Shown piece by piece: positions 20,227 through 60,000 of a stretch of 60,000 nt of DNA; position 1 is the stretch's first letter; every line of letters begins with the position of its first letter. Where the stretch lies: the NCBI RefSeq assembly GCF_018350175.1, contig NC_058368.1, positions 79,796,001-79,856,000 of the forward strand, in the 5' to 3' direction. Both the position numbers and the translations under genes were made by a program. Source of the stretch: Felis catus (taxonomy: Eukaryota). The notes below the pieces were generated by a model. The model had not been told where the DNA came from, searched no databases, and saw only the letters and a program-made list of their open reading frames with translations.

Positions 20227-20361
20227 AATAATATGTAAATAAAATTGGCAGGTGACCTCATAAATCGCATTTATCATCATGAGTACACTCAACTAAAGCA
20301 GGCTAAATCCCTAAACAGACAGACATAAAAAAATGTCCATAGTCTTATTTACAGGAAATAG

Positions 20362-21765
20362 TAATAGACTTAAAAATGTATGGCCAACTACCCTTTGGCA
20401 AAGCAAGAAAGAGTATCCAATGTAAAAAAGACAGTCTCTTTAACAAATTGTGCTGGGAGAACAGGACAGCAACATGCAGAAGAATGAAACTAGACCACTT
20501 TCTTACACCATTCACAAAAATAAACTCAAAATGGATAAAGGACCTGAATGTGAGAGAGGGAACCATCAAAATCCTAGGGGAGGAAACAGGCAACAACCTC
20601 TTTGACCTCAGCCACAGCAATTTCTTGTTCAACACATCTCCAAAGGCAAGAGAAATAAAAGCAAAAATGAACTATTGGGACCTCATCAAGATAAAAAGCT
20701 TCTGCATTGCAAAGGAAACAATCAACAAAACTAAAACAGAATGAGAGAAGATATTTGGAAATGACATATAAGATAAAGGGTTAGTATCCAAAATCTATAA
20801 AGAACTTACCAAACTCAACACCTGAAAAACAAATAATTCAGTGAAGAAATGGGCAGAAAACATGAATAGACACTTCCAAAGAAGACATCCAGATGGCCAA
20901 CAGACACATGAAAAGATGCTCAATGTCACTCATCATCAGGGAAATACAAATCAAAACCACACTGAGATACCACCTCACACTGGCCAGGGTGGCTAAAATT
21001 AACAACTCAGGAAACAACAGATGCTGGTGAGGATGTGGAGAAAAGGGAACCCTCACGCACTGTTGGTGGGAATGCAAATTGGTGCAGCCACTCTGGAAAA
21101 CAGTGTGAAGTTTCCTCCAAAATTTAAAAACAGAACTACCCTATGACCCAGCAATAGTGCTACAAGGTATTTACCCAAAAGACACAGGAGTGCTGATGCA
21201 CAGGGGCACATGTACCCCAATGTTTATAGCAGTGCTTTCAACAATAGCCAAAGTATGAAAAGAGCCCAAAGGTCCATCAACTGATGAATGAATAAAGAAG
21301 TGGTTTCTGTATACAATGGAATACTACTTGTCAATGAGAAATAATGAAATCCTGTCATCTGCAGCAACGTGGATGGAATTGGAAGGTATTAGCATAAGTC
21401 AGAGAAGGACAGATATCATGTTTTCACTCATATGTGGAACTTGAGAAACTTAACAGAAGACCATGGGGGAAGGGAAGGGGGACGATAGTTTCAAACAGAG
21501 AGGGAGGGAGGGAGGGAGGGAGGCAAACCATAAGAGACTCTTAAATACAGAGAACAAACTGAGGGTTGATGGGGGGCAGGGGAGAGGGGAGAATGGGTGA
21601 TGGGCATTGAGGAGGGCACTTGTTGGGATGAGCACTGGGTGTTGCATGGAGGCGATGAACCACGAGAATCTCCCCCAAAACCAAGAGCACACTTTACACA
21701 CTGTATGTTAGCCAATTTGACTATGAATTATACATAAAATAAGCACATAAAAAATAAATAATAAT
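20362..21765 (+). mobile_element. 5'-truncated felid/carnivore LINE-1: decayed ORF2 C-terminus plus 3' UTR
   Basis: ORF 20376-20744 reads 'YGQL..KDSLFNKLCWEN..MKLDHFLTPFTKINSKWIKDLNV..WDLIKIKSFC', typical of L1 ORF2. It continues with stops and frameshifts into the Cys-rich end, then the 3' UTR and A-rich tail. Confidence 0.97.
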
Positions 21766-23866: not shown

Positions 23867-24067
23867 GAGGTGCCCGGGTGGCTCAGTTGGTTGAGCATCT
23901 GACTCTTGATTTTGGCTCAGGTCATTATCTCAGGGTCGTGAGATCGAGCCCTGAGTTGGGCTCTGTGCTGAGTGTGGAGCCTGCTTGGGATTCTCTCTCC
24001 CTCTCTCTCTCTCTGCCCCTCCCCACCACTTACATGTTCTCTCTCTCTCTCTCTCTCTCTCAAAAAT
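23867..24067 (+). mobile_element. Can-SINE (older 'gactcttgat' type), tail truncated
   Basis: Head and CT tract present; stops at 'ctcaaaaat' with no poly(A) tail or TSD. Confidence 0.92.
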
Positions 24068-24117
24068 GACCTGAGCTGAAGTCAGACACTCAACGGACTG
24101 AGCCACCCAGGCGCCCC
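24066..24117 (-). mobile_element. Can-SINE 5' head fragment fused tail-to-tail with the previous SINE
   Basis: 'atgacctgagctgaagtcagacactcaacggactgagccacccaggcgcccc' is the reverse complement of a SINE 5' end. Confidence 0.92.
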
Positions 24118-24120
24118 ACA

Positions 24121-24320
24121 CACTTCCAGTTATAAAATTACTAAGTCACGGGGAACACAGTGACAGTGTCAATGACATTGACAGTGTCAATGTCACACTG
24201 GTGACAGGTGGTAGCTGCAGCTTACTGGACACAAATCTCGAGTCACTGTGTTGTGCCCCTGAAACTAACATAACATCGCATGTCAGCGATGAAGTGAAGA
24301 CAGTAATGAATAAATAACTT
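24121..24320 (+). mobile_element. Older L1 3' end (L1MA9/L1_Carn-like)
   Basis: 'cttccagttataaaatta.taagtcacgggga' and 'gttgtgcccctgaaactaacataacat..atgtca' are L1MA-type 3' UTR hallmarks. Confidence 0.7.
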
Positions 24321-29067: not shown

Positions 29068-29134
29068 TGTGTTAGCTATGTTCTCCAGAGAAACCAAGGC
29101 AATAGGAGATGATCAGATAGAGAGAGAGAGAGAT

Positions 29135-29176
<42 letters not shown>

Positions 29177-29894
29177 TGATAGATGATAGGTAATAGATGA
29201 TAGATAACAGACATATAATCGGTATAGATAATTGATAGCTAGATGATAGATAATTGATAGATATATAGATAGATAATAGATGATAGAGAAGATAGATATA
29301 GATATAGATAATTGATAGCTAGATGATAGATAGATGATTGATAGATAGATAGATGATATATAGATAATTGGTAGATAGCTAGATGATAGATAATAAGATA
29401 GATAGATAATTGATAGATAGATGATAGGTAATAGATGATAGATAGATAACAGATATATAATAGATATAGATATAGATAATTGATAGCTAGATGATAGATA
29501 ATTGATAGATAGATGATAGATAATTGATAGATAGATACCCAGATGATAGGTAATTAATAGACAGATCTTAAGGAACTTATTCACTTGATCGTAGGGACTA
29601 GCAAACCTGAAATTCATAGGGCAGGCCAGCAGGCTGGAAACTCAGGCAGGGATTAGTGCTACAGTTTCATGGAAGAATTTCTTCTTCTGGGGAAACCTCA
29701 GTTTTGGCTCCCAAGGCCTTCAACTGATTGGATGAGGCCCACCCACAGTATGGAGGATGCTCTCTTTTCCTGAAAGTAAACTGGCTGTAGATGTTAAGTG
29801 CATCTACAAAATGTCTTCACAGCAATATCTGGAGTAGTGTTTGATTTCTAGATTCTATAACCTAGCCAATTGACAGCTACAGTTAATGGTCACA
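29068..29894 (-). mobile_element. ERVL solo LTR (MLT2 family) interrupted by a GATA expansion
   Basis: Starts 'tgtgttagctatgttctccagagaaac..aatagga'; has internal 'ggccttcaactgattggatgaggcccacccaca'; ends 'ctagccaattgaca....agttaatggtcaca' (TG...CA termini). Confidence 0.9.
29110..29560. repeat. Complex (GATA)n satellite with higher-order structure
   Basis: GATA/GAT/TAGA units with recurring 'gataattgatagctagatgata' blocks. Confidence 0.97.
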
Positions 29895-41298: not shown

Positions 41299-42025
41299 CG
41301 TCATCATACATCACATCGTACATCATACACACATCATATATCACGTGTAATCATAACACGTCACACCATACATGATGAATACATCATATAGACATCACGC
41401 ATACATCATGCATCACACCATACGTCATACATACATCATACATCACAAATACACGTCATACATCACACCTTGCATAAATCACACAGATATCATTCATCAC
41501 ACATCAGACATAATCATGCATTGCGTCATCCATCATGTATAATTCATGCATCAGACTACACATCATACATCACGTCATACATATATCATATATCTCATGC
41601 ATACATCATACACCATGCCTATATCACACAGACATCTACATCATACATCACATCTTGTATCACATGCATACAGTATACATACATCATACATCACATGTGC
41701 ACATCATACATCACACCATACACCATGCACACATCATATATAACATAAATACACATGTACCACATCATACGTCATGTATCACATCATGCATACATCATGC
41801 ATCACAACATACATCATGCATTGTATGCATCCATCATGCATGCATCCTGCATCACATTGTACATCATACATACACCATATGTTGCATGCATGTGTGATAC
41901 ATCATACATCACACCATGCACACATCATACATGCACCACACATCGCATCATTCATCATACATATATCCTGCATCGCATCAGACATCATGCAGACATCATG
42001 TATAACATCATACATCATATATCAT
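41299..42025. repeat. Degenerate CATCATA/CATCACA/CATCATG low-complexity tandem array
   Basis: About 725 nt of G-poor CAT/CAC-based units; produces the His/Ile/Thr-rich ORFs in the track. Confidence 0.95.
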
Positions 42026-44854: not shown

Positions 44855-46329
44855 TAAAGTAATATTTAGAAACACACAGACTCCCCTTTTACTGCACTAA
44901 CAACATCATGAGGTGTTCATAGCTTGAGAGCAAGTTTTAGAAATCTCAGGTGGGGTCTTCCCGCTCAAATCAACGATGTGTCCTTTACATTCTAAGCTTG
45001 CCCATTCTAAGCACAAGACACCGAAAGTAAACCACCTGACTCTCATCTCCCAAGAAGTTAGTAAACCTTCTGAGGGTCCATATTAGCCCAGTAAGATGAA
45101 CCATCCCTGTACCCTCCTTGCTTCCAAAAATGGGATGAAACTCAAAGTCCATAAAGGTAGTTACAACAAAGAAGAAGGAAAAGCCCAAGGAATTGTGCCC
45201 AAGAAGGGGACACTGTACAGAGTGGTGTGGAGGAGAAGGAAACTTCTAACAGATATTTCAAATAAAATTCATCGTTTTTCCTGATTGTTCATATTTAGTT
45301 GTTTTTTAGAAACCCAATATTAAAAAGATTTTTGTGAAAATAAACAGAAATTTAAGGTATCTGAGGCTTCCTGTTATATTGGAGTATAAATCTCAGATTA
45401 CTTAAAGATAAGTACAAAAGTTCTAGGATCTTTAGAATCCTCAGATAAAAACATTGTCTGAAAACATTCTGGACTTCAGTCTTGAGTAGGAACTAAATTT
45501 TAAGAGATCCTCGTTCAGAGATGAAAAGGACACGAAGGGAAAAGGTAATAATGGAGTCCTGCAAACTGCTTAAAATACCAACAGAAAACCCAGTCCAGCC
45601 TCTGTCCTGCCTCTCACCCCACATGCCAATTACGATGGCACCCGCCTTTGCCCTCACCCTTGACAACTCAATTCCAAACGCCAAGTCCAACCCTGAAACT
45701 ACCTCAGGGAAAAATAAACAGTGCAGAACAACCCAAGCACGTCACAACCCTCCCTGCCAAAAAGCCTCGAGATCAGTGCCTGATCTTTACATGGACTCAA
45801 GTAGGATTCACATCCATCTGACAGAGCAATTTAGTTCAGGGACCATCCACCATTCTTCCTTCCGTGGCTCCTGGTCTCTCGCATGAGCTCACAGAACTGT
45901 TTTTGTTTCTAAAGATGGTAGGAAATGAATCCCACAGGCCTGGCTGTCTATACACCCTAGGGATTCAAGCAAACCTTTGGAAAATGCCAGTCATCTCCAC
46001 ATCCAGAGTCCGGGGTTGCAGCCCCAAATGCCCAGATGCTGTCCAGGTCATGGGGAAAGGAGCCTCCCTGAGGGCCCTCCCCACCTTCTGGGCTTGCTCT
46101 TCAGCCCTGGTCCTCCATAAAACCCCATCTGCAGACCCTTCCCTGGGACCTTCGCCCCTGCCCAGTGAAGAGGGGGACGGACCTCCAGCAGGCAGGGGTC
46201 CTGCCTCTCCTGCTGCAAAGGAGATAGGCGCACATCTGAATGGTAGACTCTTTAAGAAACAGTAATTCATCTTAGAGAAGCCTGGCCTGGGAACTTGGCA
46301 TGCTTTGCACATAAAAGCAGCCAGCTAAG

Positions 46330-49285: not shown

Positions 49286-49489
49286 AGGGTGCCTGGGTGG
49301 CTCAGTTGGTTGAACATCTGACTTTGGCTCACTTTGTGAGTTCAAGCCCTGCATCAGGCTCTGTGCTGACAGCCTGGAGCCTGCTTTGGATTCTGTGTCT
49401 CCCTCTCTTTCTGTCCCTCCCCCACTCAAGCTCTGTCTCTCTCTCTCTCTCTCTCTCAAAAACAAATAAACATTAACAAAAAAATTTTT
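49286..49489 (+). mobile_element. Can-SINE with internal deletions
   Basis: TSD AAGGTAA(T/C)GGGACA at 49272-49285 and 49490-49503. Confidence 0.95.
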
Positions 49490-49634
49490 AAGGTAACGGG
49501 ACAGATGATACTTGATGCCATAAAGATCAGCACGGGGCAGCTTTCCGAAATGCCCTTAGGGGAAACTTTATTTTACATTTCACAAAGCTAGGTATGTTAT
49601 GTCGTTCCTGTTATAGGATAAAGCATCAGATTTT

Positions 49635-49861
49635 TTTTATTTTTTTAAATTTTTTTTTCAACGTTTATTTATTTTTGGGACAGAGAGAGACAGAGCATGA
49701 ACGGGGGAGGGGCAGAGAGAGAGGGAGACACAGAATCGGAAACAGGCTCCAGGCTCTGAGCCATCAGCCCAGAGCCCAACGCGGGTCTCGAACTCACGGA
49801 CCGCGAGATCGTGACCTGGCTGAAGTCGGACGCTTAACCGACTGCGCCACCCAGGCACCCC
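49635..49861 (-). mobile_element. Very young felid Can-SINE (SINEC_Fc-like)
   Basis: CpGs largely retained; long tail; perfect 16-bp TSD TAAAGCATCAGATTTT at 49619-49634 and 49862-49877. Confidence 0.97.
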
Positions 49862-51639
49862 TAAAGCATCAGATTTTAAATACCGTCTGTTTGTCGCGGG
49901 GTGCTCCTGACAGAGCAGCTCTTGTGACACCCTGGCCCCTACTATGAGGACCATCAGAGCTCCGTTCTTTCCTCCTTCCCTGTTTCTAACACAAATACCC
50001 GTCCTCTGGACCAGTCTCCAGCTTTATATGTTTTCCTCCAGGGACTCGTTACCGATCTCTGCCTTATAGTGGAGCCACTGAATTGCTGAGCCGGCAGGCG
50101 TCCTGGGAATCGCCGTCTGATGCCTTCGGTTGCAGGTAGAGAAGGACACCTGAGTGCCTGAGACACAAAGTGACCGGTCAAGGCCACACAGCTGGTTAAT
50201 GTCGGGAAGCATCAGCGACAAAACGTCCCCATCCCCGTGCTTCTCAAATGCTTGCTCTCTGGGATTGTTTCCAGAGATGCTCGAATGTTCTACTGACTCC
50301 TAAGAAATCCACGTATATTTGGAGTGTACATCTCAAAGAAATGGGGGTATCTGAGGTAACGTTCTTAGTGCACTAAACCCCAGAAAGGTTCCCAGAAACA
50401 ATAGTTTCCTGCGGAAAAGCACTTCCTCTGCCTGAAGAAGGCTGGGGCGCCTAATGTGACACCAGGCAAGAAGCCACCCAACACCAGGGCCGTGCCGGAG
50501 AGCCGGCTGTGCATGAGCCATTGGCTGCTTCAGAGACCAGAGACCACAGCTCGCTTCTTTAGGTCGGCCACATAGACCCTCTGCCTCCGTATTCTCTTTC
50601 CTCGGTTTTCCATTCAATAAATACAGCCTGGAGGGAGACGGTGTCATGGCAGGGCAGGGGAACCAAGGTTTCTGCTCCTTTAGACGGGGTCCCAATATCT
50701 TAGACTCCCACTCTCCTGCCGACAGTGTTTCGGCACATGACACTGCCACTCGGGTCCCCTTCCCGAGGCGTGGCGCTGGGCTGTGCAGACTCCTTCGTGG
50801 CGCCTGCGGGGAATGTAACCCCAGGTACTCAATCCTGGGCAGCAGCACCGGGGTGGACTTGTCTGCGGTGGACTCTTGACTGGCGCTGGATCGCTCCCCT
50901 TTGCTGCCCACGCTCCGGAGACCTGCCTGATGACCTGGCTTAAGTGGGGACTTGTGTCGTGGGATTCCCAAGTACTGTGTGTGCCTTCCACTAGTAAAAT
51001 AGGTTTCGTGCTAACAGGAGACGGTGCAGTTCACCGACCTGTCATTTTGCTTGTGTCCTCGAGGCCCTTACATTTCACTTGAGGTGCAAAACTGTCCGTT
51101 AGAAGGAAAATTTCTTTTTCGTTCGTAATGCTGATCATGAACAGGTTCTAAGTATGTGCAAAAACCCCATTAAAGCAAAGAGATGACTATGAAAAAAATG
51201 TCTGTATACAGGGGGAAGAGAAGCCACAATCACTAGTTTTGTCTTTGGCTGTTTCAGAATGGCTCGTTTCTGACGCCTGCTGGGACGTCTTCATGTTTGG
51301 TAGAATTTCCCGCCTCTGGGCAAATCCAGGAGTGCGCTGGCTGGATGTTCTGGTAAGAGGATGTCCCACTCTGTGAGCACTGTCTTCCCGAGCATCTGTG
51401 CCAGTCTGTGCTCCCGCCAGCCATGATGGGGGCTCCGCCCACTCCTGTCTTCGCCAGGATTTGGTGCTGTGCTCTCTCCTGTCCACACTTCCGTCTCCCC
51501 GTCGGTGACCTGAGCATCTCTGAGGCCCCTGGGGCCGCATCCGTGAGCCTGTGTTGAGTTCGTCACCTCAGACTGTTTCATGGCACCCCCATGGGGCACG
51601 TTTGCTGCCTGTTAGCAATGGTGAGGGTGGTCTGGGGAC

Positions 51640-51935
51640 CACTGTGGGACGAACTGTGTCCCCCCGCCCCGGCACATTGGATGATGGCTGCCCTCAGAGG
51701 TAGGGCCTTCAAAGAGGTAATTAGGGTAAACTGAGCTCACCTGGGCTGGACTTAATCCAGTATGACTGGTATCCCCAAGAAGGGCAGCTGAGGACACAAG
51801 ACAGAGGGACGGCCACACGAGGACATGGGAAGAAGGCAGCTGTCTGCAAACCATGGAGGGAAGCCTCAGAATGAAGCAGGCCTGCCGGCACCTGGACCTG
51901 AGGGCTCCCGCCCAAGGGTCGCTGTGTGGTCAAAG
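51640..51935 (+). mobile_element. MaLR LTR (MLT1A/B-like), decayed
   Basis: 'gaactgtgtccccc', 'agggccttcaaagaggtaattagggtaaa.tgag', 'taatccagtatgactggt' and 'agaaggcagctgtctgcaa..ca.ggag.gaagcctcagaa'. Confidence 0.82.
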
Positions 51936-53349
51936 GCTGCATGTTGCTGACGTCTGGCCCCTGGGCAGCCAGTCCTGTCTCTGCACGACAGTGACCCCAA
52001 CCTCCATGGTGCCGGGCACGTTACACAGTGCTTTGTCTGCTGAGCCCTCGCAAGGCCAGCCAGGCCTGTTTGAAACGGCAAATGTAACAGTGACAGTTAC
52101 CTCCCTTGTGCTCTTTGCCAGAACCTTCCAGGGCACTGAGGACTTAGGGCTCTCCAAAGCTCCCGGGCCTGAAGCTCCGAGAAACAGGCCACGGTTGTGC
52201 TGGACGCGGACCAAAGCTCCCGCCTGTCTGCCCGGCCGTCAGTCACCTCCTGCAGCATCTCTGCTGGGCCCGGTCACCCTCCTTTCTGCTCTGGCCTGGG
52301 GCCCGGGGACGGGGGCCATGCTCACAGCTGGGCACCCTCAGGCCGATCGCCACCAGGAACGGGGGATGGTCTCAGAACTGACGTCTGCAGTCTGGCTGGG
52401 TCCTCATCGTGCTCAAGGAGACAGAGAAGACACAGTCCTGCACACAGGACGGGGACACTTTCCTGGACTTGTCTGCTAGAATGCCTCCTTTTTGCAGCCA
52501 CAGTGTTTGAGAAATGACAGCTCAGAAGCTCCAGTGCCTTCCAGAAACACCAGCCTCAGAACGGGAGGGGCCGGACCAGCCTCAGAGCGGGGTGCCCAGG
52601 GCCAGGAGCACCCTGGCGCTCTATCCCCCCGCTTTGTGGGGCACGTCTTGTCCCCCTCCACCTGCCTCCCCCCACCCCCCCCCCACACACACACACAGTC
52701 ACTGTAGACACTACTCATTTCCACATACCTATCACGAACGTCGTCAGACCCCAGAAACATGGAAGGCATTACACGGTGCATTACGCCTGTGCTCACCGCC
52801 CGGAGTCCGCAAGTCCTAATTTCTCACACCGTGATCCATTCACCCTCTCTAGCCCTGCGTCCACTCTCCTGTTCGTTATGTATTTCAAAGCAGGTTTCGG
52901 ACGTGAGCGCACCTGCTCCTGGACGCTCGTACCTGTGCATCCTCCGCCAGAGTTCGGTGTCCGTTTACGGCTCTGCTTCAAACCCCACCTTTTGAACGTA
53001 ATGATGTAGGGGGTGATTTTTTCCTTTCAAATCTCACAGCGCTGCTGAGGATGACGGGAAGTGCTCCCGAGAGGAGGAAAATTGGGGCTGGAGCTCCTGT
53101 CTGTGGCAGGAACGCTTCCTGTTCGGCGTTCACACAAGCAGGCTGGGAACTGAATCAGATGCAGGGGATGCGATCCTCCTTAGTATACCTGAGGGGAAGA
53201 GGTCAGAGTCCAGGAGGCCCCGGGGACCGGCCCAGGGCAAGAAGTTCTGTGCAGCTGGGGCCCCAGCCCTGTGTGTCTGCCCCCAGCTCCTTCCTCAAGC
53301 TTTCTTCCCTCTGATGCTTCCCTCTGCTCCCCATCACCCCCCACCCTCA

Positions 53350-53700
53350 TCCGTCTCTCTCTGTATCTCTCTGTGTGTCTCTCTTTTTCCATCTGTCTCT
53401 ATCTTTGTCTCTTTCTTCCTCTCTCCCTCCTTCTGTCTCACTCCATGTCTCTGTCTCTGTGTCTCTTCTCTCTGTCTTTCTCTGTCTCTCTGTTCCTCAC
53501 TCCCCTGCCCCTATCTCTCTTCCCTCCCTCTGTCTGTCTCTTTCTGTCTCTCCGTGTCTGTGTCTCTGTGTCTCTCCTTCCCTCCGTCTCTTTCTGTCTC
53601 TCCGTGTCTGTGTCTCTGTGTCTCTCCTTCCCTCCCTCTGTCTCTCTCTCTCTCTGTATCTTTCTGTGGCTCTTTCTGTCTCTCTTCCTCCCCCCTCCCC
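53350..53700. repeat. CT/CTGT-rich low-complexity tract
   Basis: Pyrimidine-rich; the unit 'tctttctgtctctccgtgtctgtgtctctgtgtctctccttccctcc' recurs at 50-bp spacing. Confidence 0.95.
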
Positions 53701-54682
53701 CGCCCCAGTGTGACTTACTCCCTGCACTGTCCCGGACCCTTGCGCCCCATGAACTGGCATCTGACACCTCCATGGTAACACAAAAACGTAAGTTGAACCA
53801 ACACAAGAACACGGAGAATGAAGTAATTGGGGGATTTCTGTGCGAATTTAAGAGTTGGCACCAGAAACAATGAAATCTGAGAAAGTGACTTCACTAGATA
53901 GTAATTTTGCTTTAGGGAAACCACAATAGCAACAGGGCTCGTGAAATCCTCTGTGGGCTCTCACCGGTGTCATGACACGAGCCGTGTGGCAAGGACCCCG
54001 GTCGAGGTGCCCATGAGCCTGCAAACAGAGGGGCAGTGGGACCCTACGGCCCCTTGTTTCTGGGCTCCCTGTGCCTGGGGAAGAAGCCCACCACCCACAG
54101 ATGACTATTCTTGGAAGAACCTCCCGCGGAGCCACGGGGAGCTGGAGTCACTGTCCCCTTTGTCCCCTGCTCCCAGAGGGCCCTCTGGGACTAACGTCAT
54201 GATGCCCGGCTCTATGGGGTCTTCTGGCACCTTCCAGGGGGCAGAGCTGCTCCTGTGGCCATTCCCCCCACCCCGCGTGCGCACCTGCCCCCACTGGCTC
54301 CTGAGGCCCCTGTAGGGTACACCCCCCCCAGACACCGTGGGGCCCTGGCGGCCTCAGCCTCAGCCCCTGGAGACGTGCCTTGGGCGGCTCACTCACTTGA
54401 GGCCTCTCCCCTAATCACCCCACATCCCCCCCTGCACCCCCAACCCCACGGCCATGCTCGAGGCCCCGCCAGGGCTGGGGACACTGCACCAGGGACAGTG
54501 GGAATTATTCTGGTTCTCCAGAGCCCTGGGAGTGTCTTGTCACCCAGCCGCCTCCTTCCTGCCAGGGGGTCCCTCAGGCATGGCTGTCTCTGGGGGCCAT
54601 GACCAGGTCATCCCCTACCGCCAGGCAGCCCCTCAACGCCCTGTCCCCAGTGGTCCCAGCTGCCCCACAGAGTCCCAGCAGG

Positions 54683-54684
<2 letters not shown>

Positions 54685-54716
<32 letters not shown>
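54685..54716. repeat. (TG)16 microsatellite
   Basis: Perfect dinucleotide run. Confidence 0.98.
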
Positions 54717-54718
<2 letters not shown>

Positions 54719-55277
54719 CTGCCATACGCCGAAGCAAGCACGGCCACCAGAAATTCAAGGCCATCAGCGTCGGCCGGAACCCCCTGTGAGGAGCAGGTCC
54801 GAGAACCTCCACGCGGGCACTGACTTAGGGACTTGAGCGGCTTGAGGACCGGGGCAGAGGTCACATGGTAGTGAGCCGATCTCACGAGCTGGGCACTACA
54901 CTGCCCGTTACTAAGTGCCCTCTGGCACGGCCCCTGGGTCCGGCTGCCCATCCCTGCTCGCATGTTAGAGCCCCCAGCCGCCTCCGCGGTGCTCTTCCTG
55001 GACGGCCTGCTCTTATGTTCCCGCTGAGAGGGACTGTCCACTTAGCTCCCACGTCAGAGAAAGAGCCCGCCGTCACCACCCTTGTCAGACACCATCCTGC
55101 AGGCATTAAAATACCATGTTTACATTCGACTTCCCTTGCTTCTATCTGTCTGACTTCCAGACATAGGCCTCGGGGCTGAGGGGAGGCACGCCGGCCGTGT
55201 GTGCCTCACCTGTACCTCGCCCAGCACCTGGCCTAGCGCCCGTGCCTGGCAGGCACTTGTGAAACACGTGTTGGAAA

Positions 55278-55512
55278 GGGGCCCTGGGGTGGCTCCTTCA
55301 GTTGAGTGTCCAGCTCTTGATTTCGGCTCAGATCATGATCTCCAAGTCGTGGGATCGAGCCCCGTGTGGGGCTCAGTGCAGAGTGGCGAGTCTGCTTGGG
55401 ATTCTCTCTCCCTCTCTCTCTCTGCTCCCCGCCTACTTCCTTGCTCTCTCTCTCTCTCTCTCTCTCTCAAAATAATAATAAATAAACTTTAAACAACATT
55501 TAAAAAAAAAAA
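55278..55512 (+). mobile_element. Can-SINE (older 'ctcttgat' type)
   Basis: Head 'ggggccctggggtggctc', CT tract, A-rich tail. Confidence 0.93.
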
Positions 55513-56835
55513 GAATGGTAAAAAAGAAAAAGCAACAGTACTGATCACTGACAGACCACAGGTATGGCTACACCCTCCACCCGTCTCCTCCTGTCACCCC
55601 AGCACAGCACACAGGTGAGCCTGCCCCATGGCCTGCCATCTCCAGCTGGAGCAGAGGAGGCATCGCGTTGTGGCATCCAGAATCCTGCCCCCACACTCCC
55701 TCCTCTGGGTTTTCTGGCAGGACCCCGAAACTGGGGAATCACAGCTCCTCGGTGCAGGCAGCCGTCGCTGTGGGTGCTTTGTGGTCTCAGTAACCAGAAA
55801 TCAACAGAAAGCATGGCCGGGCTATGTCGGGCACAGATTCCAGCACGTTTCAGGGCCAAGGGCTGATGGTGGAAATCCGTGCCTTCACCTCCCTCTGTCT
55901 GTCTGTGTCCCTGTCTGTCTGTCTTAATCTCTCACATCCCGTCATTCTCGCCCCATTTTTAAATCTACTTATTTTTTACCTATCAACCGAATACCACCCT
56001 CTGCCAGCGATTACCAAGATTGTAATCGTGATGAACCACTGATTCACAGCCACCTTAGTGAAATTAACCCAGCCCGGGAAATTAGTGATGCATCGGGCCG
56101 ACATCTCCAAATCGGCCCCGCCAAACACAGTTCTGCAGAACCTCAGACGAGCTCAGGTTTTCTGAGGAGAAATCAGAGAGTGAGATTATTTAGTCTGAAA
56201 ATAAATGCTGTGAAGTCGTTCAATAGCTTCAAGCATCATGAAGCCTTCCGACTCGGTTTCCATGGAAGACGGACCCGAGGAAATAAATTTCTGTGTCCGA
56301 GTGATGCGGAGAGCAGGCCGTGCCCGGGATGGGGAGGGAGGCCCCTGCGCCCGGCCGAATGTCGTGGGCTCTCATGCCCTCTCTCTGCCTAAACTTTGGG
56401 TTTTGTTTCTGTTCCCTGGGTAGTTTTAAAATTACTAAATACACACGCCTGTTGTGCATTTTCCAGACACAAACTGATTAGCGTGTTTGGGAAAGTACAC
56501 ATGTTCCCTCCTCTACAAGCACACGGGAGGGCGTCCTGTACTCTTGTGCAACCTGCTGTTTCCTTTAACCACATACGTGAGGCACCTGTACAGACCGTTG
56601 CGCACGGTGTTACCTCATCGTTGGATGGCACAGACCCTCACGCCCAGGTATGCGCCTCTCCCCTCACCATGGCTCTGTCGGACACAGCTTTGTGATCTTT
56701 CCATTGTTTACAGAACTCATGCCCTATCTGCACACTTACGTGAGTGTGTCCATAGAATAAGTTCCTAGGAATGAAAATAAATTCCTAGAGAGGGAATAAC
56801 CGGATGAAAAGCAAGTCTATTTTTAACCCCCGTGG

Positions 56836-57054
56836 TTTTTTTTTAAGTTTTAGTTATTTATTTTAAGAGAGGGAGCAAGAGAGAGCATGAGCAGGGGAGG
56901 GGCCGAGAGATAGAGAGGGAGAGAGAGAATCCCAAGCAGGCTCCACGCTGTCAGCACAGAGCCCAACATGGGGCTCGAACTCACGAACTGAGATCGTGAC
57001 CTGAGCTGGAACCAAGAGTCGGCCGCTTAACCACCTGAGCCTCCCAGACACTCC
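56836..57054 (-). mobile_element. Can-SINE
   Basis: Antisense body; degenerate TSD ACCCC..GGTTTT on both sides. Confidence 0.93.
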
Positions 57055-57106
57055 ACCCCTGGGGTTTTGAGTAAACCTTTGTGTCTTCAGATGACACTTA
57101 CATGAA

Positions 57107-57278
57107 GCAGGGGTTCTCACAGGGAGCCACAGAGAAGGCCGCTAAACAGGTGGCTGGGTCTCCGCTCCTCAGAGCTGCTCATCTGGAAGGCCCGGGCTGT
57201 GACCCTGGAACCCACATCGGGGAGGAGCTCCCAGCTGATGCCGATGCTGGTCCGGGGACCACACGTGGGGAGCCAGTG
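57107..57278 (-). mobile_element. MER5A-like DNA transposon relic
   Basis: 'caggggttctca' start and 'ctcccagctgatgccgatgctggtccggggaccacac' end match the MER5A reverse complement. Confidence 0.75.
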
Positions 57279-58522
57279 AGTGAAACCATCTGCTTGCTTT
57301 CGAGAAGAAGGAAGAAATGAACTCTGGGGGCCAGAGGTGGTGTCCTCTCTTTTCTGAATGCCCTGCCCTTGCCCACCGGGGTGAGAGGGAAGGCGGGTCA
57401 CCGGGGAGAGGCCCACCGTCACTCTGCACTCCAGAATCTGTGCATTTCAAGCCCTCCCCCCACACTCCCAGCACGCCTACTCCTTCTCAGGAGCCGTCCA
57501 GCACCTTGTGGCTTCCGGTGATATTTGTTTAGCAAGCCCTCTGTGGATTTGTCTTCACGCCTTTTTAATGACGCTCGAGACGGGTAACTGCCACCACCAG
57601 CACCATGAAGAGCCTTGTGTGCCTGGCACACAGTTCCCATGATATCTTAGAAAAGTGTCTTCTCCAACCCCCCCCCCCCCGACTATGGCACGAATACTCA
57701 CACACGGAGCGCCCTCTTGCACTTTCTATGAAAAGCTGTCACAGCCTGCCAAGGTCACGGCCACGGTGAGATTAGCCCACAGTGTACTAGCCTGTTTGCA
57801 TTTCCTAGATGTGATATTTTAAACAACAGGACAGGAGCCATGGGTGGGAGGGATGAGGACACAGGGCTGCCGGGGCGTGTGGCCCACTGGACACTCACCA
57901 AGGGGGTTCAGAGGAGGTCAACCCAAAGTCCCTCGGCACACAGGGCACAACTACCCACTGTACCCCTACTTGAGAAGAACGAGCCACTCACACTCAAGTC
58001 CTATGTCCCGAGGCTCAGGCAGGCTCACCCCCTTTTCAGGACCTACCCACCAGGCCACTGGGATGACCCCCACTGTGCCTCCGCATCAGTTGTCTTCACG
58101 GGCCCCTACGTGCTGTAAAGCTCGGCACCTGTCAGCCTTGTTCATTCTATTTCTCGTGACTGCAACAGATGTTGAACTTATTTGATTACAAGCAATATTG
58201 GGACAGTATTTCCATGTCTTCACACTCACTCATGGCTTCCTGTGCAAGGACCTTCATCGGCCCACGTGATAGAGGCCATGGCCGAAACTGGAAGAAGTTA
58301 TACAAGTTTTTTCTGAGGAGACCCAGCTGGAGAGTGAAAGATTCCATTCCAAACCCTACTTCTGGGCTTTTCTATCACTGTGTCTCACTGGCTCCCTCTG
58401 TGTCTGTTAATGAGTGTGATTATTTGTAACAAGTAGCTGACCAAGAACTTCAATGTGCCAGGTAACTGCTAAGAAACACAAGCTACCACAGGGGGTACCG
58501 ACCTTGAAGACAGGTCTTTCCA

Positions 58523-58733
58523 TGGGGCACCTGGGTGGTTCCGCGGGTTAGGCATCCGACTTCAGCTCCGGTCATGATCTCATGGTTCCTGGGTCCGAGC
58601 CCCGCGTTGGGCTCTGTGCCAACAACTCAGAGCCTGGAGCTGCTTCAGATTCTGTCTCCCTCTCTCTCTCTGCCCCTCCCCCACTCATGCTCTGTCTCTC
58701 AAAAATGAATAAATGTTAAAAAAAATTATAAAA
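58523..58733 (+). mobile_element. Can-SINE
   Basis: Full body; perfect 17-bp TSD GAAGACAGGTCTTTCCA at 58506-58522 and 58734-58750. Confidence 0.97.
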
Positions 58734-59384
58734 GAAGACAGGTCTTTCCAGCACCTTCACTGCACAGGCGGTCAGACTGAGGCCCCAGGGTCTAGCACCC
58801 CTTCCCACTGGCAGGTGACCTAGCCAGACTCCCTGCTGGGTCCGGTGATCCACAGGCAAGTGCCAACCACTGGTTTCTCTGGAAGCCAGCCTGGCCTACA
58901 GACTACAGAGAGAGGAGAGAGGAGCCCATGACCAGTCGGGAAGTACTCGCTGCAGAGCTAAGTTCTGACCTGAGACTGGCAGTGGACGGGGCCTCCGAGG
59001 ACAGACTGCCTAGCTCCGGACGCACGGTGGTCCATATGTGGTCTTGTTATGTGGTTGGGGGCTGACCTCTGCCCATGAGTACGTAGTTTACTTGCAGGGG
59101 CAGAAGTGACACCGATGTGAAGAGCGCCCCGTCGAGAAACAGCATGTGGAATGGGTACGCAAGAGAGGGCTGGCTGGGGTGCCCCGCTGTGGGGGGCAGC
59201 CGGGAAGGCGTGGGCTGGGCCCTGCCCATGGCAAACCTCCAGCACCGCCCCACAGGCTCTCCAGACCCCACACGGACCCTGGGAGTGGCCTCTGAAACCC
59301 GGGCGCCCAGGGCTGGACCACACTGCTAACCAGACCCCAGAAGCCCGAGGTGCCTGGCGCTGTGTGGTCAGCGGTTGCGGCTGG

Positions 59385-59943
59385 GTCCAGGCCCCAGGGT
59401 CTGCTCCCTGCTCCCTGCTCCAGCTCCAGGATCCAGGATCCCAGGTCCCAGCTCCCTGCTCCCAGCTCCCTGCTCCCAGGTCCCAGCGCCCAGATCCCAG
59501 CTCTCAGCTCCCTGCTCCTGCCTCCCAGGTCCCAGGACCCAGGTCCCAGGTCCCAGCTCCCTGCTCCCTGCTCCCAGGTCTCAGCTCCCAGCTCCCTGCT
59601 CCCAGCTTCCAGCTCCCTGCTCCCTGCTCCCAGCTCCCGGCTCCAGTCTCTTCATGAGGACCGAGGGCCCTGGAGAGGGTGTGGGTGGAGTACCTTGCTT
59701 CAGTCCCGTAGGCAGCCGCTTGGAGCTGGGAGCTGGGAGCTGGGAGCCAGGAGCTGGGAGCTGGGAGCCAGGAGCTGGGAGCTGGGAGTAAGGAGCAGGG
59801 AGCTGGGACATGGGACCTGGGACCTGGCTCCAGTCTCCCAGGTCCCAGGTCCCAGGTCCCTGCTCCCTGCTCCCAGCTCTCAGCTCCTTACTCCCAGCTC
59901 CCAGCTCCTGGCTCCCAGCTCCCAGCTCCCAGCTCCCAGCTCC
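59385..59943. repeat. Heptamer minisatellite (CTCCCAG/CTCCCTG/GTCCCAG) in three blocks of alternating orientation
   Basis: C-rich block at about 59385-59640, G-rich block at 59722-59827, C-rich block at 59838-59943. Confidence 0.95.
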
Positions 59944-60000
59944 AAGCAGCTGCCCAGGGGACTGAAGCAAGGTGCTCCACCCACACCCTCTCCAGGGCCC
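59665..60000. repeat. Long inverted repeat (163-bp arms, 10-nt spacer), open at the window edge
   Basis: 59665-59827 versus the reverse complement of 59838-60000: 19 mismatches in an ungapped manual alignment. Confidence 0.95.

What the first reader, a model, noticed from the sequence alone, without database searches (positions are those of the whole stretch)
59665..60000. Symmetric ~336-bp palindrome built into a heptamer satellite, running off the window edge
Seen: 59665-59827 is the reverse complement of 59838-60000, around a 10-nt spacer CTCCAGTCTC. This is more than simple-repeat symmetry. The outer ~62 bp are unique sequence (gggccctggagagggtgtgggtggag[t/c]accttgcttcagtccc...) with only 4 mismatches between arms. 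The rare variant units 'ccaggag' and 'taaggag' occur in both arms, shifted by whole heptamers. Both visible arms are 163 nt with no net indel (19 mismatches ungapped). The right arm is cut by the window, so the palindrome may be longer. Established: closely spaced long inverted repeats can extrude cruciforms, are fragile, and give long dsRNA hairpins if transcribed. Inference: a fold-back duplication that has since diverged, possibly one unit of a larger alternating-orientation array.
Basis: partly seen in the sequence, partly recalled or inferred. Interest (0 to 1): 0.72.

Follow-up and report, generated by a model that had tools for sequence, protein, structure and literature searches.

The report
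Fold-back copy inside a cat minisatellite
A real 336-base DNA palindrome sits inside a 7-base tandem repeat in apparently non-coding, likely cat DNA, and it likely arose when DNA copying doubled back once and pasted in a 175-base inverted copy, a known kind of mutation with no function shown.

Summary
The palindrome is real: 163-nt arms, 10-nt spacer, 19 ungapped mismatches. The spacer is part of a 12-bp direct repeat (59639-59650 = 59826-59837) that brackets a 175-bp segment: a 14-bp linker plus the left arm. The upstream heptamer array and the right-arm array share orientation and register across that repeat (13 of 13 and 12 of 12 units). One event explains this: the left arm is likely an inverted, locally templated insertion into a once-continuous minisatellite, a '4 before 1' template switch (PMC7954356). 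This predicts that the palindrome ends about 14 bp past 60000 and is not a unit of an alternating array; I could not read beyond the edge. The equal arm lengths hide two offsetting 14-bp indels (chance 8-27%). Six substitutions in 149 aligned bases suggest about 9 Myr (3-19), if cat. There is no Rfam or Pfam hit, and transcription is untested. The scan has noted template-switch palindromes on other DNA before. Verdict: a clean, rather long example of a known mutation class, probably neutral.

The parts
59398..59649 (+). Upstream heptamer minisatellite (array A), consensus CCCAGCT/CCCTGCT/CCCAGGT, about 35 units, C-rich on +; likely the left part of the ancestral array
   Evidence: TRF 59403-59644, period 7, 34.7 copies; unit table
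59639..59650 (+). Direct repeat copy 1 (12 bp, GGCTCCAGTCTC), last units of array A
   Evidence: Exact 12-nt match to 59826-59837; 0 copies in the other 59.4 kb on either strand
59651..59664 (+). 14-bp linker; predicted to be the outer end of the inverted insert, with its mirror image just beyond the window edge
   Evidence: Lies between repeat copy 1 and the visible left arm; mirror not testable in the window
59665..59717 (+). Left arm, unique part (53 bp), 4 substitutions against the right arm
   Evidence: blastn 94% over 52 nt to 59949-60000; next-best hit in the window 18 nt, E 0.011
59718..59827 (-). Left arm, heptamer part (about 16 units) in inverted orientation, G-rich on +; likely the derived copy
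   Evidence: TRF 59718-59827; unit string
59826..59837 (+). Direct repeat copy 2: last 2 bases of the left arm plus the 10-nt palindrome spacer (59828-59837)
   Evidence: with 59650 fixed, 59837 is the only one of 350 downstream positions with a backward match of 5 nt or more
59838..59947 (+). Right arm, heptamer part (about 16 units), same orientation and register as array A; likely the ancestral donor
   Evidence: TRF 59830-59947; register 12 of 12 units in phase
59948..60000 (+). Right arm, unique part, cut by the window edge; likely the original flank of the minisatellite

Best explanation
The palindrome is likely the scar of one local template switch: a 175-bp inverted copy of the minisatellite's right end and flank sits inside the array, between two copies of a 12-bp word, and it likely has no function. 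Shown: the direct repeat, the inverted arm next to it, and the shared orientation and register of the two outer arrays. Inferred: the ancestor was one continuous array of about 50 heptamers followed by the unique flank. The simplest route is on the G-rich minus strand. The new strand came through flank and array, stalled just past the 10-nt word and folded back with that word as the loop, priming on 2 bp (4 of 5 bases can pair). It recopied about 175 nt of itself, unfolded, and rejoined the template at the start of the word, copying it twice (order 3-2-4-1). An inter-strand switch of the plus strand (4-1-3-2), or fold-back repair of a staggered break, gives the same product. The arms then took 6 substitutions and two 2-unit slippages.
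For: Exact 12-bp direct repeat whose second copy ends on the base before the right arm; absent from the other 59.4 kb. It is the only backward match of 5 nt or more among 350 positions downstream of 59650. Array A and the right array are in one heptamer phase relative to the repeat, 13 of 13 and 12 of 12 units, and share unit types. The 5 bases before spacer copy 1 match the arm's inner end at 4 of 5, with 2 exact at the junction. Walker et al. describe '4 before 1' events that look like one large insertion with direct plus inverted repeats (PMC7954356, section 8 and S5 Fig legend). Fold-back priming from 2 terminal pairs is shown for Pol theta (PMC11292364, abstract and passages). Yeast fold-back insertions reach about 150 bp (PMC11724301, passages). 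Of 6 substitutions, 1 is G-U-compatible on + and 2 on -, none compensatory: no sign of selection on an RNA stem.
Against: No pre-insertion allele or outgroup was seen, and the donor of the 14-bp linker lies outside the window, so one junction is unchecked. The insert (175 bp) exceeds the hominid gold-standard maximum of 128 (median 12), though that search was limited to +/-100 nt and dropped repeat-masked donors. It also exceeds the 3-30 bp quoted for mammalian inverted Pol theta insertions. Inside such arrays 12-nt matches are not rare in general: 119 of 25,641 position pairs, 0.46%, so the case rests on where the match falls, which I noticed after the fact. The register match has a 1-in-7 chance on its own. 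G-quadruplex stalling as trigger is weak: mean G4Hunter about 0.95 in magnitude, under the usual 1.2 cut-off (recalled).
Confidence: 0.7

Rival explanations
1. The visible palindrome is the centre of a longer one, or one unit of an alternating-orientation array: past 60000 come the mirror of the linker, the 12-bp word and array A.
For: The right arm is still pairing perfectly (26 identical bases) at the window edge. The three visible arrays do alternate +, -, +.
Against: It needs the central spacer to equal the end of array A by coincidence or by extra switches; one event explains both. Nothing left of 59398 has a counterpart elsewhere in the window (59000-59400: best other hits 11-15 nt).
Confidence: 0.1
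2. Two steps: a 187-bp tandem duplication (word, array end, flank), then an inversion of the first copy that spared the word.
For: Gives the same final layout; minisatellites duplicate readily and the arms show unit slippage.
Against: The inversion breakpoints must coincide with both ends of the duplicated unit; less parsimonious.
Confidence: 0.08
3. The hairpin is functional or actively maintained: a transcribed long dsRNA (ADAR or Dicer substrate), or a DNA hairpin whose arm lengths are kept equal by structure-templated repair or selection.
For: Very stable fold on either strand (-352 and -350 kcal/mol). Arm lengths are equal despite indels in both arms.
Against: Net-zero length after 2-4 unit indels has an 8-27% chance in simulation. 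No compensatory substitutions. Variant units are out of register, which repair within a paired stem should have erased. 0 Rfam matches in the window. 0 Pfam families in 53 of the 57 stop-free frames of 100 aa or more starting at 45497 or later. An unchecked AI note puts the last COL4A1 intron 44.8 kb beyond the window, far for read-through.
Confidence: 0.08
4. Assembly or library artefact (fold-back chimera).
Against: A chimera would give identical arms; these differ by 6 substitutions and two 14-bp indels. 14 of 24 listed runs, from 5 studies, hold 0.97-0.98 of 303 sampled words of 57100-60000, of which the palindrome is 11.6%; 12 are flagged as possible sources, and 2 (X7, X8, one study) are not. 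This does not prove the few junction-spanning words.
Confidence: 0.02
5. A mobile-element product: an L1-mediated retroduplication with a 12-bp target-site duplication, or a MITE/foldback transposon.
For: A 12-bp flanking direct repeat is within the usual size of L1 target-site duplications (recalled).
Against: No poly(A) at either insert end and no T-run/A-run target. The insert is a copy of the adjacent DNA. The direct repeat flanks one arm, not the whole palindrome. No second copy in the window.
Confidence: 0.02

Closest known systems
Four-point template-switch mutations, '4 before 1' class (Loytynoja and Goldman 2017, PMC5453318; Walker et al. 2021, PMC7954356)
   Same: Reverse-complement copy of adjacent DNA, plus a direct repeat of the 4-to-1 segment, appearing as one insertion.
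   Different: Copied tract about 175 bp against median 12 and maximum 128 in their gold-standard set; the donor is largely minisatellite, which their filters exclude; no ancestral sequence was available here.
Inverted templated insertions by fold-back at breaks (Pol theta stem-loop extension, PMC11292364; yeast Pol delta plus end joining, PMC11724301)
   Same: Priming on a few terminal base pairs around a short loop, self-copying, then rejoining.
   Different: Longer than the 3-30 bp quoted for mammalian cells and the 2 to about 150 bp in yeast; loop 10 nt against a favoured 6 nt; the 12-bp duplication would need a staggered break.
Template-switch-born hairpins and de novo miRNAs (Monttinen et al., 10.1101/2023.04.19.537475)
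   Same: A hairpin stem made in one step, with a 10-nt loop.
   Different: Stem of 163 bp or more against the preferred 35 bp; apparently intergenic; no Rfam match; transcription untested.
Closely spaced inverted Alu pairs as fragile sites (PMC10164571; review PMC7999016)
   Same: Short spacer (10 vs 12 bp), arms 88-96% alike, could form a hairpin on single-stranded DNA.
   Different: Arms are about half an Alu, are not SINE-derived, and are single-copy in the window.

Membership tests
Local template-switch mutation, '4 before 1' class | Inserted fragment is the reverse complement of nearby DNA | tested here: met
   163 of the 177 bases 59651-59827 mirror the adjacent right arm
Local template-switch mutation, '4 before 1' class | Direct repeat of the 4-to-1 segment on both sides of the insert | tested here: met
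   12-bp exact repeat 59639-59650 / 59826-59837
Local template-switch mutation, '4 before 1' class | The whole insert is accounted for by the donor | not testable with these tools
   Donor of the 14-bp linker would lie past 60000; no genome held; no copy in three collections
Local template-switch mutation, '4 before 1' class | Ancestral allele lacks the insert | tested here: inconclusive
   No outgroup; only the indirect sign that flanking arrays are in register
Walker et al. operational 'short-range' set | Donor within +/-100 nt and not repeat-masked | tested here: not met
   Tract 175 bp, two thirds minisatellite; limits read.
Pol theta inverted templated insertion | Priming by 1-3 bp pairing around a short loop | tested here: met
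   2 exact (4 of 5) bases, 10-nt loop; criteria
Pol theta inverted templated insertion | Length 3-30 bp in mammalian cells | tested here: not met
   175 bp
L1-mediated insertion with target-site duplication | Poly(A) tail and T-run/A-run cleavage site (recalled) | tested here: not met
   Insert ends and repeat inspected
MITE / foldback transposon | Target-site duplication outside both terminal repeats | tested here: not met
   The direct repeat flanks one arm only; the right outer edge itself is out of view
MITE / foldback transposon | Dispersed copies genome-wide | not testable with these tools
   None in the window; no genome held
Inverted SINE pair | Arms are SINE sequence | tested here: not met
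   The unique arm part has no hit over 18 nt among the window's many SINE copies
miRNA or structured RNA gene | Match to a known RNA family | tested here: not met
   0 Rfam matches at gathering score in 60 kb
miRNA or structured RNA gene | Transcription and processing | not tested
   No read-level data were obtained for the locus
Immunoglobulin switch or 3' regulatory-region repeats (recalled) | Located in an immunoglobulin heavy-chain locus | tested here: inconclusive
   AGCT density is 4-7 per 100 nt vs 0.44 background, but no Pfam domain in 53 upstream frames; unchecked notes place the window between MYO16 and COL4A1

The most novel reading that the evidence does not exclude
A G-rich minisatellite seeded an unusually long (175-bp) fold-back insertion into itself, and the hairpin has since been held at equal arm length for millions of years. 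Each arm's 2-unit gain offsets the other's because hairpin-templated repair or selection on a long dsRNA or DNA structure favours symmetry. The G-rich left arm can pair with either C-rich neighbour or fold a quadruplex, making a small three-state structural switch downstream of COL4A1.
Probability: 0.08. Interest if true: 0.55.

Novelty: new member of a known kind. Interest (0 to 1): 0.22.

Why it matters
If the reading holds, this is a clean fixed example, with readable junctions, of a template switch longer than published short-range surveys could detect and inside a repeat they mask. It hints that minisatellites may hide a class of 100-200-bp fold-back insertions. As one neutral locus it changes little. 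It would matter more only if arm symmetry proved to be maintained across felids or the hairpin were transcribed and edited.

Tried and rejected
No own genome is held. No read-level data were obtained (laid nothing), so the two junctions, the continuation past 60000, variation between cats and transcription all stay open. A 24-base pattern from the unique arm found 0 matches in metagenome, viral and prokaryote-genome contigs. Rfam: 0 matches. Pfam: 0 families in 53 of 57 frames of 100 aa or more from 45497 on; frames further left and the 4 frames over the palindrome were not scanned. Earlier notes by sequence gave only two bacterial heptamer repeats sharing 5 and 3 of 180 words, and none in relatives. 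My 'rare-word' null returned 0 pairs, including the observed one, so it was mis-specified and is not used. Unit-gap alignments at gap cost 0.9 and 1.5 were degenerate (107 aligned, 5 gaps) and were dropped; costs 2.5 and 4 agreed. RNA runs with small word shares (X18-X20) are no evidence. Rejected: L1 retroduplication, MITE, inverted SINE pair, artefact, immunoglobulin switch region (see Membership tests). One search for a paper on palindromes made by template switching inside a minisatellite (10 papers, listing only) showed no obvious match; this is not a proof of absence. Supplements of PMC7954356 (S1 Data, S1 Table, S5 Fig image), which would give counts per event type, were not opened.

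Full report
Observation. As RNA it folds at -352 kcal/mol, z -26, with 0 of 100 shuffles as good. It is the strongest inverted self-match in the window. In the other 59.4 kb the longest closely spaced inverted pair is a piece of two opposed SINEs. TRF finds three period-7 arrays: 59403-59644 (+, 34.7 copies), 59718-59827 (-, 15.7) and 59830-59947 (+, 16.7). The unique part of each arm is therefore about 53 bp.

Setting. The SINE sequences look felid to me (recalled, not tested). Unchecked notes of this scan call the genome cat and place a MYO16 exon 708 kb before the window and the last COL4A1 intron 44.8 kb after it. I did not verify these. Rfam gives 0 matches in the window. Pfam gives 0 families in 53 of the 57 stop-free frames of 100 aa or more that start at 45497 or later. 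The locus is apparently intergenic.

Is it real DNA? 14 of 24 listed runs, from 5 studies, hold 0.97-0.98 of 303 sampled words of 57100-60000; 12 are flagged as possible sources and 2, from one study, are not. The palindrome is 11.6% of that stretch, so most of its words occur in those data, but the few junction-spanning words are not proven. The arms differ from each other, which a fold-back chimera would not produce. No reads were laid (searches returned nothing) and no genome is held, so the DNA past 60000 is unseen. A 24-base pattern from the unique arm is absent from three public collections, none of which is a mammalian collection.

The spacer, with the two bases before it, forms a 12-bp word (GGCTCCAGTCTC) that occurs exactly twice: at 59639-59650, closing the upstream array, and at 59826-59837, ending on the base before the right arm. 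It does not occur in the other 59.4 kb on either strand. With 59650 fixed, 59837 is the only one of 350 downstream positions with a backward match of 5 nt or more. Against over-reading: 119 of 25,641 position pairs between the two arrays share 12 nt or more, so what counts is that the match falls on the arm boundary, and I noticed it after the fact. Between the two copies lie 175 bp: a 14-bp linker and the left arm. The upstream array and the right-arm array have the same orientation, share unit types, and sit in the same heptamer phase relative to the word, 13 of 13 and 12 of 12 units (1-in-7 by chance). Taking out 187 bp would leave one continuous array of about 50 units followed by its unique flank.

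Mechanism (inferred). In the four-point model a strand leaves its template at 1, copies 2 to 3 in reverse complement, and returns at 4 (PMC5453318, parts 1-2 of 6 read). Walker et al. found many events with 4 before 1; these give a direct repeat plus inverted repeats and look like one large insertion (PMC7954356, section 8 read whole, other passages). Here, on the G-rich minus strand, the new strand passes flank, array end and the 10-nt word, folds back with the word as loop, recopies about 175 nt, and returns to the start of the word. The bases needed to prime are there: 2 exact at the junction and 4 of 5. On the plus strand the same product comes from an inter-strand switch. Break repair is a third route: Pol theta extends stem-loops from two terminal pairs (PMC11292364, abstract and passages), and yeast fold-back insertions run from 2 to about 150 bp (PMC11724301, passages). 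The sequence cannot tell these routes apart. A quadruplex stall is a possible trigger: 6 of the window's 25 four-G-run motifs lie in the last 600 bp, and allowing quadruplexes lowers the predicted energy of array A's G-rich strand from -33.5 to -57.1 kcal/mol. But mean G4Hunter is only about 0.95, so this step is weak. The model makes a sharp prediction: the right arm should run only about 14 bp past 60000, as the mirror of 59651-59664.

Since the event. The parsimonious unit-aware alignment has 149 aligned bases, 6 substitutions (4.0%, 95% interval 1.5-8.6%) and one 2-unit gain in each arm. Equal length thus hides two offsetting indels; simulation gives net zero in 8-27% of cases. At the cat pedigree rate of 0.86e-8 per generation at 3.8 years (10.1101/2021.04.06.438608, search listing only), 4% means about 9 Myr; conversion between arms or a slower long-term rate would make it older. 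One of the 6 substitutions is G-U-compatible on the plus strand and 2 on the minus strand, and none is compensatory.

Function. None is shown. Template switches have yielded thousands of primate hairpins and at least 18 miRNAs, with a preferred stem near 35 bp (10.1101/2023.04.19.537475, part 1 of 4 read); this stem is far longer and apparently outside a gene. For fragility, yeast Alu pairs 12 bp apart lose about 15-fold at 94% and 58-fold at 86% identity (PMC10164571, passages), and cruciform extrusion starts by melting the centre and is disfavoured by spacers and mismatches (PMC7999016, passages). A residual lagging-strand hairpin is plausible; a strong fragile site is not likely.

Comparison and verdict. 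It works like a '4 before 1' template switch and meets the two features that the window can test. The ancestral allele and the linker's donor could not be tested. It falls outside the operational limits of the published short-range set and the usual Pol theta length, so I do not file it under either. L1 retroduplication, MITE, inverted SINE pair and known RNA family fail a defining test. The scan has noted template-switch palindromes on other DNA, including one beside a bacterial heptamer repeat and one in a RUFY-family intron (unchecked). Novelty: new member of a known kind. Interest 0.22. The boldest reading left open, arm symmetry actively maintained or a transcribed dsRNA, gets 0.08.

Noticed in passing
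window 59535-59645 with 59721-59831: The left arm can also pair with upstream array A (111 nt, 86% complementary, 75 nt apart, pair I5), so it has two competing partners.
   Followed up: partly
window 49287-49860: Two SINEs in opposite orientation, tail to tail, about 150 bp apart; the second is flanked by a direct repeat. An ordinary inverted SINE pair.
   Followed up: partly
window 23869-24115: Short inverted SINE-head pair, 36-nt arms 175 nt apart (I3).
   Followed up: no
window 24157-24193: An 18-bp unit in two tandem copies that is also a near-palindrome with a 1-nt spacer (I22); possibly another small template-switch or slippage product.
   Followed up: no
window 41302-42025: Degenerate CAT/CATA-rich array of about 720 bp with several periods (7, 11, 30, 43, 50) and strong C skew.
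   Followed up: no
window 29115-29537: GATA-type microsatellite of about 420 bp.
   Followed up: no
window 53344-53685: Pyrimidine-rich TC/TG tract with an internal 50-bp duplication, 94% match.
   Followed up: no
window 20343-21140: Frames that read like a LINE-1 ORF2 fragment (recognised from memory, not scanned).
   Followed up: no
window 50001-60000: G+C rises from about 0.44 over much of the window to 0.49-0.67 in the last 10 kb, with CpG observed/expected up to 0.67 at 56001-57000.
   Followed up: no
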